NCBI GenBank assembly: GCA_963783835.1
Contig: CAWAOX010000014.1
Span: forward strand, 87,855 to 151,854
Length of the DNA stretch: 64,000 bases
Reading direction: 5' to 3'
Source of the DNA: an uncultured Actinomycetota bacterium
GTDB lineage: Bacteria; Actinomycetota; Thermoleophilia; RBG-16-64-13
The translations under genes were made by a program, and so were the position numbers. The notes under the pieces are model-generated. The model was not told the origin of the DNA. It was given only the letters and a program-made list of their open reading frames with translations, and ran no database searches. Positions 49,163 through 52,313 of this stretch are shown in pieces. Position 1 is the first letter of the stretch; each line of letters begins with the position of its first letter.

Positions 49163-50766
49163 CTACCGGGTGAAGGCCCAGGTGTCGTTGAGAGAGGCTT
49201 TGCCGGTGATTCCACCAAACATAACCAGCCGATCCGTGGATGGGACGTAGATCAGCGAGGCGGACTGGCGTGCGGCCGGTGCGTCCCCCTTCGGTCGCAG
49301 CTCAGTCCAGGTGTTCGTGACAGAGTCGTATTCCCAAGTGTCTCCGAGCAAGCCCAGGACTGCGCCCACCCCTCCGTTGAACCCTCCGTACATGACCGTA
49401 TGGTTGTCCGCTGAGTTATACGCCATCGGAGTACCATTTCGCCCTTTGGGCAGGGTCCCCGAGGGTTTGAGTTCGGTCCAGGTATTGGCGGTGGAATCGT
49501 AGGCCCAGGTGTCGTTGAAGTCCTCTGGAATGTGGGGTCCTCCGAAAACGATCATCAGGCCCTTCGAGGAGTCGTGGGCCATGCCATGGTCACTACGGGA
49601 GGGGGCAGCGTCCCCGAGGGTGTTAGCTCGGTCCAGCTGTTGGCGATGGGATCGTAGGCCCAGGTATCGTTCAGAAGCATCTCTTCGGGAATCGGTTCGG
49701 GGCCTCCCACTTGTGCATACCTGCCGCCGAACAGGATGATGCGCCGAGTGACTGGATCATAGGCCATCGAGTGGCCTCCGCGCGCCGAGGGTACCGTCCC
49801 TGAGGGGACCAGGTCTTTCCACTCGTTAGTCGCGGAATCATAGGCCCAGGTGTCGTTCCGGAAGAGGTTGGCGTCGAAACCTCCGAATAGAATCAGCCGG
49901 TGAGTGACCGGATCGTAGGCCATCGAGTGGCCGGCGCGCGCCGAGGGTACCGTCCCCGAGGGGACCAGGTCTTTCCACTCGTTAGCCGCTGGATCGTAGG
50001 CCCACGTGTCGCCGTAGAAGATGAATGAAGAGTTCTTGCCCCCGAATGCGATCACCAAGTCATCGACGGAGTCGTAGGCTAGACTGGTGCTGTCGCGCCC
50101 AGCCGGCGGCGTCCCCGAGGGGCTGAGTCTGGTCCAGGTGCCACGTTGGGCCAGACTGCTGTTATGGTGCTGCAGGCCCAGGCCCAGGCCGAGTCCGAGG
50201 CCGACGGTCACGAGCAGCACGGCGGAGGCGAGGGCGATAACCCAGGTCCTGCGGCTCGGTCTTCTCGGTCTCGCAGTCGCCTCGCCGGCGCCGATCTCGG
50301 GCTCCTCGGCAAGCTCTGGAGCAGCGATCTCGGGGGGGGCAGGAGCCTTGGCCTGCTCGTAGACCCCGGACAATTGCTCCCGCACGGCGGCAACGATCTC
50401 GTCACGCCTATCCTCGACGCCCCCACGGGCCTCGAGCCACTGCCAGAGGTTCAGGTAGTACTCCAGGGAAGCGTTGGGAATGGAGTCATCCAGGTGGACG
50501 GAGAGCACAGGCCGCTCGTAGGATATGGCCCTCTCGATCTCGCGAAGCACGTAGGGGGAGGAATTGGCAGAAGCGGAGAAGATGAGCAGCACAAGGTCCG
50601 AGTTGCGGATGGCCGCGATGCTCGCGGCCGCTTTGTCAGTGCTTGTCATCGCGTCGCGGGAAGCCAGCCAGCAGCCGATGCCATCGGCCTCGAGCAGCGC
50701 GTAGACGCGGGAAGCTGCCTCTTGATCCTGCTGTGCGTAGCTCAGGAAGACGCTGCGAGCCGTCAT
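49163..50766 (-). CDS. TIR-TM-kelch repeat protein 1, frameshift near 49600
   Basis: VFLSYAQQD...SPYVLREIERA; TM WVIALASAVLLVTVGLGLGLG; FGG..NDTWAYD repeats continue in ORF 49163-49582. Confidence 0.88.
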
Positions 50767-50771
50767 GGGAT

Positions 50772-52313
50772 CTAGAGAGCGCAAGCCCAGGTGTCGTTGA
50801 AGTCAGATTGAAGCGCGGCCGACGACCCTCCGAACATGATCAGCCGGTCGCCGGAGGGGTCGAATACGGTCGACTGAAGCGCGCGCAAAGGGGGCGCGGC
50901 GCCGTATGCGACGCGGAATTTCGTCCAAGTATTGGCTTCTGCGTCATACGCCCAGGTGTCATTGTAGGCCCCGTCGCCATCGGGACAACCTCCGAACATG
51001 ATCAGCCGACCACCGGTCGAATCGTAGACCAGGTCAGGGCCATACCGCGGATCCGGCAGAGTCCCTGAGGGGCTGAGTTCCTTCCAAGTGTTATCCGTCG
51101 GGTCAAAGGTCCAGGTATCGTTGAACTCTCTATCAAGGTTCCAGCCGCCGAACAAGATCAGGCGATGGGCGGCCGCGTCGTAGACCATGGCCGGCTGACC
51201 GCGCGCAGGGGGCAGGTTGCCGGAGGGGCTGAGCTTGGCCCAGCTGTTGCCCGCCGGATCGTAGGCCCAGGTGTCGTTGAGCAGTTCGGTCTCGGTCGAT
51301 CGTCCTCCGAACATGATCAGCTGCCTACCGGCGGGATCGTATACCATGACATGCCCCGCGCGCCCGAGGGGTAACGTGCCCGACGGCTTGAGTTCGGTCC
51401 AGGTGTTGGCAGCCAGATCGTAGGCCCAGGTGTCGCCCAAACGAGTGGTGCCATCGTTGCCTCCGAACATGATGAGCCTGCGAGAGGCCGGGTCGTAAGC
51501 AATCGAGCAGGCAAAGCGACCAGAAGGAAGCGTTCCTGAGGGCCGGAGATCCGTCCAAATGTTGGCCGTGGGATCATAGGCCCAGGTGTCCTTGAGGGCC
51601 GCGCCACCGTCCGCGCCAGCGAATCCTCCGAACATGATCACCCGTCCGCTCGTCGGATCCTGGACCATCTCCTGGCCGTAGCGAGCAGAGGGTAGAGATC
51701 CCGTGGGGTACAGTTCGGTCCAGGTGACCCGCCCACTCATCAGCGCGGCCCCAGAGGCGGGATGGTCTCGCGTCAGACCGAGACCGAGTCCGAGGGCGAG
51801 AGCGATGACAAGCACGGCCGAGCCGAGCGCAATCCCCCACTTCCGGCGGCTCCATCGCCACGGTGCTGCGGCCTTCTTGGTGCTGCCAGATGCTGACCCT
51901 CCGGCGGATGCCGGAGCGCCGATCGCCTCCCGTACGGCTGCAACGATCTCGTCCCGATTCTTCTCCACGCCAGCCGTGGCCTCGACCTTGCGCCACACGT
52001 TCACGTAGTACTCCATTGAGGCGCTGGGAGCCGCGTCGTCTATGCGCAGGGCGAGCAACGGGCGCTCGTAGGCCACGGCCCGCTCGACCTCCCGAAGGAC
52101 GTAGGGGGATCTGTCGGCGAACGAGGAGAAGACCAGCAGCACAAGATCCGATGTCCGGATAGCGTCGAGGATGGCGGCGGCGTAGTCGGTGCCCGCTTTG
52201 ACATCGCGGGGAGCTATCCAACAGGAGATGCCCTCGCCCTCGAGCGCGGCGCAGATCTGGATGGCGGTATCCCGATCCTCCGTGGCGTGACTCAAGAAGA
52301 CATGGTGCACCAT
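50772..52313 (-). CDS. TIR-TM-kelch repeat protein 2
   Basis: VFLSHATED..CWIAPRDV..SPYVLREVERA; TM; six kelch repeats. Confidence 0.9.
   Translation of the reverse strand: MVHHVFLSHATEDRDTAIQICAALEGEGISCWIAPRDVKAGTDYAAAILDAIRTSDLVLLVFSSFADRSPYVLREVERAVAYERPLLALRIDDAAPSASMEYYVNVWRKVEATAGVEKNRDEIVAAVREAIGAPASAGGSASGSTKKAAAPWRWSRRKWGIALGSAVLVIALALGLGLGLTRDHPASGAALMSGRVTWTELYPTGSLPSARYGQEMVQDPTSGRVIMFGGFAGADGGAALKDTWAYDPTANIWTDLRPSGTLPSGRFACSIAYDPASRRLIMFGGNDGTTRLGDTWAYDLAANTWTELKPSGTLPLGRAGHVMVYDPAGRQLIMFGGRSTETELLNDTWAYDPAGNSWAKLSPSGNLPPARGQPAMVYDAAAHRLILFGGWNLDREFNDTWTFDPTDNTWKELSPSGTLPDPRYGPDLVYDSTGGRLIMFGGCPDGDGAYNDTWAYDAEANTWTKFRVAYGAAPPLRALQSTVFDPSGDRLIMFGGSSAALQSDFNDTWACAL

What the first reader, a model, noticed from the sequence alone, without database searches (positions are those of the whole stretch)
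49163..52313. Tandem TIR-transmembrane-kelch proteins with Toll-like-receptor-like topology
Seen: each has an N-terminal TIR, a basic patch (RRPSRRTW / RWSRRKW), one TM ending in (GL)n and a six-bladed kelch propeller, with no signal peptide. Inference from the positive-inside rule: TIR inside, propeller outside, so ligand-induced clustering could activate the TIR. The genes are 5 bp apart and may heterodimerise or sense different ligands; the GLGLGLG run may pack the helices.
Basis: partly seen in the sequence, partly recalled or inferred. Interest (0 to 1): 0.8.

Follow-up and report, generated by a model that had tools for sequence, protein, structure and literature searches.

The report
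Membrane TIR sensors with outside kelch propellers
Two neighbouring bacterial genes encode membrane proteins with an immune-type TIR enzyme domain inside the cell and a six-bladed kelch propeller outside, and they sit in a small mobile gene cassette that looks like a phage-defence system able to sense the cell's exterior.

Summary
On the minus strand lie two tandem genes, B (50772-52313, intact) and A (49163-50766, one frame break at a C-run near 49597-49605). Each encodes TIR_2, a basic patch, one transmembrane helix ending in (GL)n, and six kelch blades.

An N-in/C-out topology is well supported. Of 90 family members, 89 carry more positive charge before the helix than after it. The nearest kelch relatives without a TIR are lipoproteins, SLH-anchored proteins or GYF-TM-kelch proteins.

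The pair lies in a four-gene, ~9.3 kb cassette bounded by tRNA-Arg(CCT) and a 51-nt copy of its 3' half. The other two genes are a SLOG-fold protein with four SLATT-like helices and a third TIR fused to cyclase-STAND-TPR. These are the genome's only three TIR_2 genes.

Distant SLOG-TM homologues recur beside varied TIR genes, including a TIR-TM-PD40 propeller. My best reading is a Thoeris-like system whose TIR sensors look outward. It is analogous to Toll-like receptors, not homologous in architecture.

No function was tested. The frame break in gene A is unresolved. I found no printed description of this family.

The parts
50772..52313 (-). Gene B: intact TIR-TM-kelch protein, 513 aa, including the stop codon at 50772-50774
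   Evidence: ORF. Pfam TIR_2 70.2 bits and kelch E 5.4e-74. AlphaFold2 pLDDT 86.3.
51918..52313 (-). Gene B TIR domain (residues 1-132), with S69 and E75 of the conserved S..vlrE motif
   Evidence: E75 aligns with E77 of TIR-APAZ 8j7s_B. Model pLDDT about 90.
51774..51857 (-). Gene B basic patch RWSRRKW, then the TM helix ending in (GL)4
   Evidence: Kyte-Doolittle 2.37 and K+R 6 before against 2 after. 6-bp repeat at 51775-51805.
50775..51731 (-). Gene B six-bladed kelch propeller (residues 195-513), predicted to lie outside the cytoplasm
   Evidence: Foldseek: LZTR1 kelch E 2.9e-24, TMt 0.87.
49163..50766 (-). Gene A: second TIR-TM-kelch gene, 5 nt downstream of B. It reads in two frames; with X at the break it is about 535 aa.
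50377..50766 (-). Gene A TIR domain
   Evidence: TIR_2 62.2 bits. 72% nucleotide identity to B's TIR region (repeat D5). 84.6% aa identity to its orthologue P0093.
50173..50271 (-). Gene A basic patch RPRRPSRRTW, then the TM helix ending in (GL)5
   Evidence: 6-bp repeat at 50174-50204.
49597..49605 (-). Frame break of gene A in the run CCCCCTCCC, inside blade 4. The upstream frame then stops at 49555-49557.
   Evidence: No public contig bridges the site.
49166..50142 (-). Gene A kelch propeller, six blades across the frame break
52427..54253 (+). Divergent neighbour, probably starting at the ATG at 52493 (586 aa). N-terminal SLOG-fold domain, a small beta domain, then four TM helices arranged as two units of long helix plus hairpin (SLATT-like). 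Proposed effector.
   Evidence: Weak Pfam, PADLOC and NCBIfam hits. AlphaFold2 pLDDT 80.3, pTM 0.80. Foldseek: DprA E 6e-4, YpsA TMt 0.62, ShosA, LOG. TM helices. ESM Atlas neighbours carry DUF4231 or SLATT.
54337..58233 (+). Third TIR protein, 1298 aa: TIR_2, a nucleotide cyclase-like domain, a STAND ATPase (AAA_16) and TPR
   Evidence: TIR_2 69.2 bits, AAA_16 E 4.3e-25, Guanylate_cyc 22.5 bits against cut-off 21.9. (PycC E 1.4e-5). (partial match to TOMM_kin_cyc).
58253..58325 (-). tRNA-Arg(CCT), one boundary of the cassette
   Evidence: ARAGORN. Rfam 66.6 bits.
48919..48969 (.). 51-nt direct repeat (94% identical) of the 3' half of tRNA-Arg, the other boundary of the cassette. It is followed by a repeat element of about 130 nt (to about 49090).
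   Evidence: Repeats D11, D8 and D10. Sequence. The pattern occurs only 3 times in the genome, all of them here.
58222..58253 (.). 32-nt tandem duplicate of the tRNA 3' end, overlapping the last codons of the STAND gene

Best explanation
Genes A and B encode single-pass, type II membrane proteins. The N-terminal TIR domain sits in the cytoplasm. The C-terminal six-bladed kelch propeller sits on the outer face of the membrane of an Actinomycetota bacterium.

They belong to a four-gene, tRNA-flanked cassette that I read as a Thoeris-like TIR signalling system. It has three TIR sensors: two that look outward (kelch) and one that looks inward (cyclase-STAND-TPR).

Proposed mechanism, all of it inferred:
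1. When a sensor is triggered, its TIR domains assemble and convert NAD+ into an ADP-ribose-derived signal.
2. The SLOG domain of the divergent four-helix membrane protein binds that signal.
3. The SLATT-like helices of that protein then damage or depolarise the membrane, which stops growth or aborts an infection.

What is shown: the domain content, the conserved catalytic-type Glu, the conserved TM module with positive-inside charge, extracytoplasmic relatives of the kelch domain, tandem paralogy, the cassette boundaries, and the recurrence of SLOG-TM homologues next to TIR genes.

What is inferred: enzyme activity, the nature of the signal, the ligand of the propeller, and a defence role.
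For: (1) Domains and fold.

(2) Topology.
- All 90 TIR-positive proteins among the 120 best hits have a TM helix after the TIR. Net charge is +4.4 before it and 0.0 after it, and it is higher before in 89 of 90. 72 of 90 end the helix in at least three G-hydrophobic pairs.
- Of 9 kelch relatives without a TIR, 4 have GYF_2 plus TM and 2 have signal peptide plus SLH. The other 3 begin with a lipobox-like signal.
- The same genome holds a lipoprotein-kelch paralogue.

(3) Catalytic motif. S69 is invariant and E75 nearly invariant in 45 family members. The same S and E are the only invariant columns in 54 diverse TIR-TM-X proteins. E75 aligns with E77 of TIR-APAZ.

(4) Clustering. The genome's only 3 TIR_2 matches are all in this cluster.

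(5) Cassette.
- The four genes lie exactly between tRNA-Arg and a 51-nt copy of its 3' half.
- In L005 the same tRNA-half plus repeat element flanks both ends of the same four genes.
- L005's outer flank is 91-97% identical in protein, yet its cassette genes are only 50-79% identical.

(6) Paralogue arrays. 8 of 9 related loci carry 2-4 adjacent TIR-TM-kelch genes. SLOG-TM plus TIR-STAND accompany them in 3 of the 9, and a STAND gene alone in 2 more.

(7) The SLOG-TM partner.
- SLOG fold.
- In a different family of the phylum (L096), a full-length homologue overlaps a TIR_2, RRRRR patch, TM and PD40-propeller gene, and lies next to a DUF4231/SLATT gene.
- Of 80 metagenome loci with homologues at 23-36% identity, 17 hold a TIR ORF by my models. 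That is 5 of the 20 with both flanks of at least 3 kb.
- Of 10 adjacent genes checked in loci scored negative, 3 more are TIR-TPR.
- The partner TIRs vary: TIR alone, TIR-TPR, TIR-STAND-TPR, TIR-nSTAND1-WD40, TIR-TM-unknown.

(8) Variability. In the family the TIR is as conserved as the propeller strands (1.13 and 1.11 bits). The B-C loops are the most variable (2.14 bits) and hold 58 of the 67 indel columns in the propeller.

(9) Literature, from passages read. Thoeris uses TIR sensors plus an effector. Type III has several TIRs and a SLOG effector. Type VII has a SLATT effector. This comes from preprint 10.64898/2025.12.03.692087.
Against: - No activity, ligand, topology or phage phenotype was tested.
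- The organism is known only from a metagenome assembly.
- Curated defence models do not recognise the system. ThsB models hit at E 7e-4 at best. NCBIfam ThcB4 scores 19 bits against a cut-off of 220.
- SLATT_3 scores 17.5 bits against a cut-off of 26.3. hhalign against a DUF4231 protein gives 3% probability.
- 4 of the 9 related TIR-TM-kelch loci (L002, L004, L008, L014) have neither SLOG-TM nor STAND in the flanks fetched, so the kelch-TIR genes can occur without them.
- 63 of 80 SLOG-TM loci showed no TIR by my models. 7 of the 10 neighbours checked were unrelated genes.
- The genomes that carry the full four-gene cassette are close kin, so they are not independent.
- The cassette holds no integrase and its G+C content is not unusual.
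- The same kelch type is also fused to GYF_2 or to lipoprotein anchors. It may therefore bind a component of the cell's own envelope rather than a phage.
- Gene A may be a pseudogene.
Confidence: 0.5

Rival explanations
1. Self-contained membrane NADase. Ligand binding to the propeller activates the TIR simply to deplete NAD+ (abortive infection or growth arrest). No diffusible signal is made. The SLOG-TM and STAND genes are independent neighbours.
For: 4 of the 9 related TIR-TM-kelch loci lack SLOG-TM and STAND in the flanks fetched. The catalytic-type Glu is conserved. From passages of the preprint read, TIR domains serve as NAD+-depleting effectors in CBASS, Pycsar and pAgo contexts.
Against: The four genes travel together inside att-like repeats in two genomes. 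TIR-TM-propeller plus SLOG-TM recurs with a different propeller in a distant family. SLOG-TM homologues are enriched beside TIR genes.
Confidence: 0.2
2. Envelope or social signalling rather than immunity. The propeller monitors the cell's own wall, or neighbouring cells, in an actinobacterium, and the TIR relays that state. It may work as a protein-interaction module together with the STAND protein.
For: The same kelch type is attached to GYF_2-TM, SLH and lipoprotein anchors in related genomes and in this genome. The flanking genes are ordinary envelope and housekeeping genes: a PknB-PASTA kinase, TIG surface proteins and a nitroreductase.
Against: Distribution is patchy: 0 of 3 genomes of the same family and 15 of 400 in the phylum carry the SLOG-TM gene. 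The cassette is tRNA-bounded. Cassette genes have diverged fast beside a conserved flank. Paralogues form arrays and their loops are variable. All of this is typical of conflict systems.
Confidence: 0.15
3. Proteolytic release. The Gly-rich outer half of the helix makes it a substrate for intramembrane proteolysis, as in anti-sigma factors. A signal outside the cell leads to shedding of the propeller and release of the TIR into the cytoplasm, where it becomes active.
For: The (G-hydrophobic)n run at the outer end of the helix is conserved in 72 of 90 homologues. The architecture parallels N-in anti-sigma factors, and the region 125-199 of gene A gives a weak NCBIfam antisigma hit at E 0.0086.
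Against: No protease gene lies in the cassette. The antisigma hit is far below its cut-off. The motif fits helix-helix packing (overlapping GxxxG) equally well. Nothing was tested.
Confidence: 0.1
4. Gene A is a real pseudogene, so only gene B, of the tandem pair, is functional in this strain.
For: The assembly reads one C short in CCCCCTCCC. The source's own gene call stops at 403 aa (P0154). A crude census found no other frame break in the 64 kb window, and its 3 candidates were ordinary neighbouring genes, so the assembly is not generally error-ridden.
Against: The downstream frame stays open for 197 codons and keeps every blade motif. All close relatives are intact at about 520 aa. 5 of 9 related metagenome-assembled loci are riddled with frame breaks, and a near-identical partial copy (P0161) has frame errors of its own. 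Indel errors are therefore common in such assemblies. My census also failed to detect the known break, so it is insensitive.
Confidence: 0.4

Closest known systems
Thoeris anti-phage systems (type I ThsB/ThsA SIR2-SLOG; type III with several TIRs plus a SLOG effector; type VII with the SLATT effector ThsH)
   Same: One or more TIR proteins lie beside one effector that carries a nucleotide-signal-binding fold (SLOG) and/or membrane helices (SLATT-like). Several TIR paralogues serve one effector. The locus looks mobile and is patchily distributed (passages read).
   Different: The TIR proteins here are membrane-anchored and carry an extracytoplasmic propeller. A third TIR is fused to cyclase-STAND-TPR. 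The effector joins SLOG to four TM helices in one chain. No curated Thoeris model reaches its cut-off. No defence or signal has been shown.
Animal Toll-like receptors and IL-1 receptors
   Same: Single-pass membrane proteins with a repeat-built sensor outside and a TIR inside.
   Different: The domain order is reversed (TIR-TM-ectodomain, type II, no signal peptide). The ectodomain is kelch rather than LRR or Ig. The TIR keeps the catalytic-type Glu and probably acts as an enzyme, not as a scaffold for adaptors. No adaptor genes are present. The resemblance is convergent.
Bacterial N-in/C-out one-helix receptors, such as PknB-type kinases with PASTA domains and anti-sigma factors (recalled knowledge)
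   Same: A cytoplasmic signalling domain, then a basic patch, one helix and an extracytoplasmic sensor. A PknB-PASTA kinase lies in the same window.
   Different: The output domain is a TIR. The gene sits in a conflict-type cassette rather than a housekeeping operon.
The wider, undescribed TIR_2-TM-X architecture class
   Same: The same N-terminal TIR subfamily and TM module. 55 of 143 newly listed representatives are one TIR, a TM helix and a tail of at least 100 aa.
   Different: The ectodomain varies. Among the 54 scanned: Sel1 5, FGE-sulfatase 4, NHL 2, SBBP 2, TPR 2, and one each of RCC1, PQQ, LRR_4, PEGA and kelch. The kelch form is the branch found in Actinomycetota (Gaiellales, Thermoleophilia).

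Membership tests
TIR domain (Pfam TIR_2, PF13676), catalytic type | Profile match above the curated cut-off | tested here: met
   Against a cut-off of 28 bits: gene B 70.2, gene A 62.2, STAND protein 69.2.
TIR domain (Pfam TIR_2, PF13676), catalytic type | Catalytic glutamate in the helix after strand C | tested here: met
   E75 is nearly invariant in 45 sequences and invariant in 54 TIR-TM-X proteins. It aligns with E77 of TIR-APAZ 8j7s_B. That E77 is the catalytic residue is recalled, not taken from a call.
TIR domain (Pfam TIR_2, PF13676), catalytic type | NAD+ cleavage or cyclase activity | not testable with these tools
   Needs an enzyme assay.
Six-bladed kelch beta-propeller | Six kelch repeats that close into a propeller | tested here: met
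   Six blades by motif. 24 strands in the model, pLDDT at least 95 over most of it. Foldseek TMt 0.85-0.87 to the LZTR1 and KLHDC2 kelch domains.
Toll-like receptor family | N-terminal LRR ectodomain with signal peptide, then TM, then a C-terminal TIR | tested here: not met
   The order is TIR-TM-kelch, with no signal peptide and no LRR.
Thoeris | TIR gene(s) adjacent to an effector gene that has a signal-binding domain | tested here: inconclusive
   Three TIR genes flank a SLOG-fold membrane protein. The SLOG assignment rests on fold (E 6e-4) and on sequence hits below cut-off.
Thoeris | Match to curated ThsA, ThsB or Thc models | tested here: not met
   PADLOC ThsB E 7e-4 to 7e-3. NCBIfam ThcB4 about 19 bits against a cut-off of 220, and no effector model hit.
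Thoeris | Phage-triggered signal production and protection | not testable with these tools
   Needs an experiment.
SLOG superfamily (neighbouring protein) | Rossmann-like SLOG fold with the Gly-rich GxAxGxD-type loop | tested here: met
   Foldseek: DprA 3uqz E 6e-4, YpsA 2nx2 TMt 0.62, ShosA 8zva, LOG 5zbl. The loop SGLAEGADR aligns with the DprA loop. Pfam and PADLOC hits are below cut-off.
SLATT 2TM effector domain (neighbouring protein) | Profile match above cut-off | tested here: not met
   Pfam SLATT_3 17.5 bits against 26.3. NCBIfam SLATT_3 17.6 against 45. hhalign 3%. ESM Atlas neighbours carry DUF4231 or SLATT in 11-70% of members, which is only a lead. The protein works like a SLATT; membership is not shown.
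tRNA-integrated genomic island | tRNA gene at one end and a direct repeat of its 3' part at the other | tested here: met
   The same boundaries are seen in L005.
tRNA-integrated genomic island | Integrase gene inside, and deviating composition | tested here: not met
   Only the four genes lie inside. G+C is 0.61-0.65, like the rest of the window.

The most novel reading that the evidence does not exclude
These are bacterial outside-in TIR immune receptors. The extracytoplasmic propeller detects a phage particle, a phage enzyme or envelope damage at the cell surface, before or at the moment of genome entry. The cytoplasmic TIR then makes an NAD+-derived messenger that opens a SLOG-gated membrane effector. 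On this reading the broad TIR-TM-X class (Sel1, FGE-sulfatase, NHL, PD40, LRR and kelch ectodomains) would be a large, unrecognised family of prokaryotic surface pattern-recognition receptors, a functional counterpart of Toll-like receptors that arose independently.
Probability: 0.3. Interest if true: 0.85.

Novelty: new variant of a known kind. Interest (0 to 1): 0.6.

Why it matters
In the passages I read, characterised bacterial TIR systems are said to sense phage invasion. None of those passages mentions a membrane-anchored TIR or a sensor domain outside the cell.

A TIR whose sensor domain lies outside the membrane would add surface surveillance to the bacterial repertoire. It would also be an independent invention of the logic used by Toll-like receptors.

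The family is large and unnamed. The TIR-TM module alone matches thousands of clusters. The cassette offers a compact four-gene system for testing signal chemistry, effector gating and ligand recognition. It also shows one constant SLOG-membrane effector paired with many kinds of TIR sensor.

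Tried and rejected
1. Reads at the frame break. The best public runs held no more than 10% of the sampled words. Laying 4 of the 6 listed runs gave 11 short contigs, and none bridges 49597-49605. The break therefore stays unresolved. One contig of 253 nt from a metatranscriptome library matches 50229-50481 exactly, but that does not prove transcription.

2. An intact allele of gene A. A search of the 5.8-billion-protein set found none at 90% identity or more. The nearest intact relatives are 65-66% identical.

3. Frameshift census of the window by third-codon-position G+C (GC3) and frame overlap. 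It gave 3 candidates, all ordinary adjacent genes by Pfam, and it missed the known break. It is weak evidence of assembly quality.

4. Promoter and terminator scan. Nothing rose above the shuffled expectation.

5. Rfam scan of 44000-60000. Only the tRNA was found.

6. Plasmid and phage collections. No record covers 80% or more of gene B.

7. hhalign of the SLOG-TM profile against a DUF4231 protein gave 3% probability. A profile search of the SLOG-TM family against PDB sequences returned only DprA, at E 1.3.

8. A reading of the frame break as programmed frameshifting or phase variation was considered and set aside. The C runs (5 and 3) are short, and relatives have no break at that place.

9. 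TIR outside and kelch inside was rejected, on charge distribution and on the extracytoplasmic relatives.

10. Complex prediction was not used. I make no claim that A and B bind each other.

12. Literature.
- Seven searches and passage look-ups in six papers found no description of a bacterial TIR-TM-kelch protein or of a membrane-anchored TIR sensor.
- One search was a poor query and returned only cannabinoid papers.
- Supplementary tables were not opened. Table S1 of preprint 10.64898/2025.12.03.692087 may list related TIR clusters or SLOG-TM effectors.
- The paper that defined type III Thoeris (van den Berg 2024) is not held. I saw only its reference line.

Full report
WHAT IS THERE

Two genes lie head to tail on the minus strand.

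Gene B (50772-52313) is intact and 513 aa long from its ATG.
- Pfam gives TIR_2 at residues 20-124 (70.2 bits, cut-off 28).
- Kelch families reach E 5.4e-74.

Gene A begins at the ATG at 50766, 5 nt after B's stop.
- Its first frame carries TIR_2 (62.2 bits) and three and a half kelch blades, and it closes at 49555.
- A second frame, open from 49756 to 49163, carries the remaining blades.
- The frames meet in the run CCCCCTCCC at 49597-49605.
- With X at the break, the text PSGTLPPP-X-RSDHGMAHD fits the blade consensus with no residue missing. The assembly is therefore one base short of an open frame.

Both proteins share these features:
- a basic patch (RWSRRKW in B, RPRRPSRRTW in A);
- a hydrophobic helix (Kyte-Doolittle 2.37 in B, 2.46 in A) ending in (GL)4-5, encoded by 6-bp tandem repeats;
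- six blades.

The AlphaFold2 model of B has mean pLDDT 86.3. It shows a TIR fold at 1-132, an unstructured linker at 136-160, a poorly modelled helix, and a propeller at 195-513 with pLDDT of at least 95 over most of it. Foldseek places the propeller with the LZTR1 and KLHDC2 kelch domains (E 2.9e-24, TM 0.85-0.87 on the target). Those are protein- or peptide-binding propellers.

A FAMILY, NOT AN ODDITY

Gene B finds 923 proteins at E of 1e-3 or better among the 8000 candidates scored. Among the 120 listed:
- 90 contain the TIR by a model built from the family;
- all 90 have a helix after the TIR;
- net charge over 15 residues is +4.4 before the helix and 0.0 after it, and is higher before in 89 of 90;
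- 72 of 90 end the helix in at least three G-hydrophobic pairs.

The named sources are metagenome-assembled genomes (MAGs) of Actinomycetota: Thermoleophilia, Gaiellales and "Actinomycetes".

In an alignment of 45 members, S69 is invariant and E75 and E77 are nearly so. E75 aligns with E77 of the TIR-APAZ protein 8j7s_B. I recall, but did not verify here, that E77 is the catalytic glutamate of that NADase.

TOPOLOGY

Beyond the charge rule, the nearest kelch relatives that lack a TIR are informative. Nine were inspected:
- four have a cytoplasmic GYF_2 domain, a proline-rich linker, one helix, a Thr-rich linker and the propeller;
- two have a signal peptide and an SLH cell-wall anchor;
- three begin with a lipoprotein-like signal.

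The window's own genome encodes a lipoprotein-kelch paralogue at 26465-28051.

This propeller type therefore works outside the cytoplasm. The TIR, which needs NAD+, stays inside. I put the N-in/C-out reading at about 0.85. No experiment or dedicated topology predictor was available.

Two genes run divergently from B.

The first neighbour (52427 or 52493 to 54253) has only sub-threshold sequence hits: DprA-like E 1.2e-4, YAcAr E 3.3e-3, SLATT_3 E 5.1e-3, ShosA E 1.7e-6. Its model, however, is good (pLDDT 80.3, pTM 0.80).
- It shows a Rossmann-like domain at 36-190 and a small beta domain.
- Two units of long helix plus hairpin follow, giving four TM helices.
- Foldseek matches the N-domain to SLOG-superfamily members: DprA E 6e-4, YpsA TMt 0.62, ShosA and LOG.
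- The ESM Atlas places the protein among clusters in which 11-70% of members carry DUF4231 or SLATT. That is only a lead.

The second neighbour (54337-58233, 1298 aa) is TIR_2, a cyclase-like domain, a STAND ATPase and TPR.

The three TIR domains are 53-62% identical to each other. They are the only TIR_2 matches in the 2.52-Mb, 90%-complete genome.

A BOUNDED CASSETTE

- The STAND gene ends beside tRNA-Arg(CCT) at 58253-58325.
- A 51-nt copy of the tRNA's 3' half, 94% identical, lies at 48919-48969, just beyond gene A. A 32-nt tandem duplicate lies at 58222-58253.
- The 22-nt core of the repeat occurs three times in the genome, all here. The four genes thus fill a 9.3-kb segment between att-like direct repeats.
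- No integrase lies inside, and G+C is unremarkable.
- In locus L005 the same four genes are flanked on both sides by the tRNA-half plus the same repeat element of about 130 nt.
- L005's outer flank is 91-97% identical in protein to the window. Its cassette genes are only 79% (SLOG-TM), 59% (STAND) and about 50% (TIR-kelch) identical. That is fast turnover inside a conserved site.

RECURRENCE

Of 76 genome loci recovered with the family profile, 9 carry TIR-TM-kelch genes.
- 8 of the 9 hold two to four adjacent copies. The ninth has one copy plus an adjacent kelch-only ORF.
- SLOG-TM plus TIR-STAND accompany them in L001, L005 and L011. A STAND gene alone accompanies them in L003 and L006. L002, L004, L008 and L014 have neither in the flanks fetched.
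- These genomes are kin (L001 and L011 come from one MAG, L005 and L006 from another), so the counts are not independent.

Independent support comes from farther away.
- The SLOG-TM profile matches 15 of 400 other genomes of the phylum, and 0 of 3 in the same family. One of the 15 is the unpublished G239.
- In L096, from another family, a full-length homologue overlaps a gene for TIR_2, an RRRRR patch, one helix and a PD40 propeller. A DUF4231/SLATT gene lies next to it.
- Of 80 metagenome loci with homologues at 23-36% identity, 17 hold a TIR ORF by my two TIR models. That is 5 of the 20 with both flanks of at least 3 kb.
- Of 10 adjacent genes checked in loci scored negative, 3 are TIR-TPR proteins and 7 are unrelated. 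TIR adjacency is therefore at least 8 of 20, but far from universal.
- The partner TIRs are TIR alone, TIR-TPR, TIR-STAND-TPR, TIR-nSTAND1-WD40 and TIR-TM-unknown.

One constant effector-like protein with interchangeable TIR sensors is the logic of Thoeris. That logic is described in the passages I read of preprint 10.64898/2025.12.03.692087: type III has several TIRs plus a SLOG effector, and type VII has a SLATT effector. A passage of PMC13069673 adds that multiple TIRs serve different phage patterns.

THE WIDER CLASS

The TIR-plus-helix part of B matches 21,282 cluster representatives at E of 1e-3 or better, and 11,326 at 1e-10.
- Of the 143 newly listed, 55 are one TIR, a helix and a tail of at least 100 aa. 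Many others carry two to seven TIR repeats.
- Among 54 TIR-TM-X proteins scanned, the tails include Sel1 (5), FGE-sulfatase (4), NHL (2), SBBP (2), TPR (2), and one each of RCC1, PQQ, LRR_4, PEGA and kelch.
- The S and E of the motif are the only invariant columns.

WHERE THE FAMILY VARIES

- The TIR (1.13 bits mean column entropy) is as conserved as the propeller strands (1.11).
- The loops between strands B and C are the most variable (2.14 bits) and hold 58 of the 67 indel columns in the propeller.
- I recall, but did not measure here, that the B-C and D-A loops form the ligand-binding face of kelch propellers.
- Gene A and its orthologue P0093 are 84.6% identical in the TIR but 52% in the propeller. 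Gene B and P0004 are 82% and 75%.

MECHANISM

My best reading (0.5) is a Thoeris-like cassette.
1. Outward-looking kelch-TIR sensors and an inward-looking STAND-TIR sensor make an NAD+-derived signal.
2. The SLOG domain of the four-helix protein binds that signal.
3. That protein then damages the membrane.

The steps from "TIR is active" onward are inference. The rivals are:
- a self-contained membrane NADase (0.2);
- envelope or social signalling (0.15);
- activation by intramembrane proteolysis at the Gly-rich helix (0.1).

Whether gene A is broken is a separate question (0.4 that it is). The reads could not decide it, and no intact near-identical allele is on record. Related MAG loci are full of frame breaks (5 of 9), and a near-identical partial copy has frame errors of its own. 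The window itself, however, shows no other break.

COMPARISON AND NOVELTY

This is not a Toll-like receptor. The order is reversed, the ectodomain is kelch, and the TIR looks enzymatic. The shared outside-sensor and inside-TIR layout is convergent.

It is not a recognised Thoeris member either, since no curated model reaches its cut-off. It does work like one on paper.

The searches and passages listed under Tried and rejected turned up no description of membrane-anchored bacterial TIR sensors or of TIR-TM-kelch. Supplementary tables were closed and may bear on this.

I rate it a new variant of a known kind, with interest 0.6.

Noticed in passing
window 47374-47720 and 48948-49090: Repeat element: two tandem 183-bp units at 47374-47720 and a third copy at 48948-49090. 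It contains ACTGAGTATCACTGAGT and GGGGTAGGGGTAGCGGTAGGGG motifs, and each copy follows a piece of the tRNA-Arg anticodon arm. This looks like a row of old att sites, that is, a tRNA hot spot with several cassettes. The same element is in L005 at 3830-3890 and 13400-13520.
   Followed up: partly
window 48255-48956 (+): ORF of 233 aa with only a faint acetyltransferase-like hit (ArsN1, E 3.9e-4). Its last codons run into the tRNA-half repeat. It sits in its own small segment between repeat elements, and is 91-97% identical in L005.
   Followed up: partly
window 26465-28051 (-): Lipoprotein-kelch paralogue (P0166, 528 aa): a lipobox, a Thr-rich linker, a helical region and six kelch blades, about 50% identical to gene B's propeller. 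It lies among TIG-domain surface proteins and a PknB-PASTA kinase (28309-42949).
   Followed up: partly
proteins P0183-P0325: Many relatives of this TIR subfamily carry 2 to 7 TIR domains in tandem in one polypeptide (for example P0218 and P0221, seven each, over 2000 aa). Some have a TM helix and a long tail after the last TIR.
   Followed up: no
alignment A3: One of the 54 TIR-TM-X proteins has an LRR_4 tail. A bacterial TIR-TM-LRR would resemble a Toll-like receptor even more closely than the kelch form does.
   Followed up: no
L008 9812-9883: In this relative a tRNA-Ile gene lies between two divergent pairs of TIR-TM-kelch genes. This is another tRNA association of the family.
   Followed up: no
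L097 8623-14962: A SLOG-only homologue (205 aa) is followed on the same strand by a STAND-like NTPase, a ClpB-like double AAA protein and a 408-aa TIR_2 protein. This is a different TIR/SLOG gene set.
   Followed up: no
window 50229-50481: A 253-nt contig from a freshwater-sediment metatranscriptome library matches gene A's TIR-linker region without a mismatch (run X5). It is a hint of presence, and perhaps of expression, in that habitat. DNA carry-over cannot be excluded.
   Followed up: no
P0161: A 277-aa protein from another assembly is identical to gene A over the linker, TM helix and first blade. It then leaves the frame and re-enters it. That contig carries indel errors or real indels in the same gene.
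   Followed up: no
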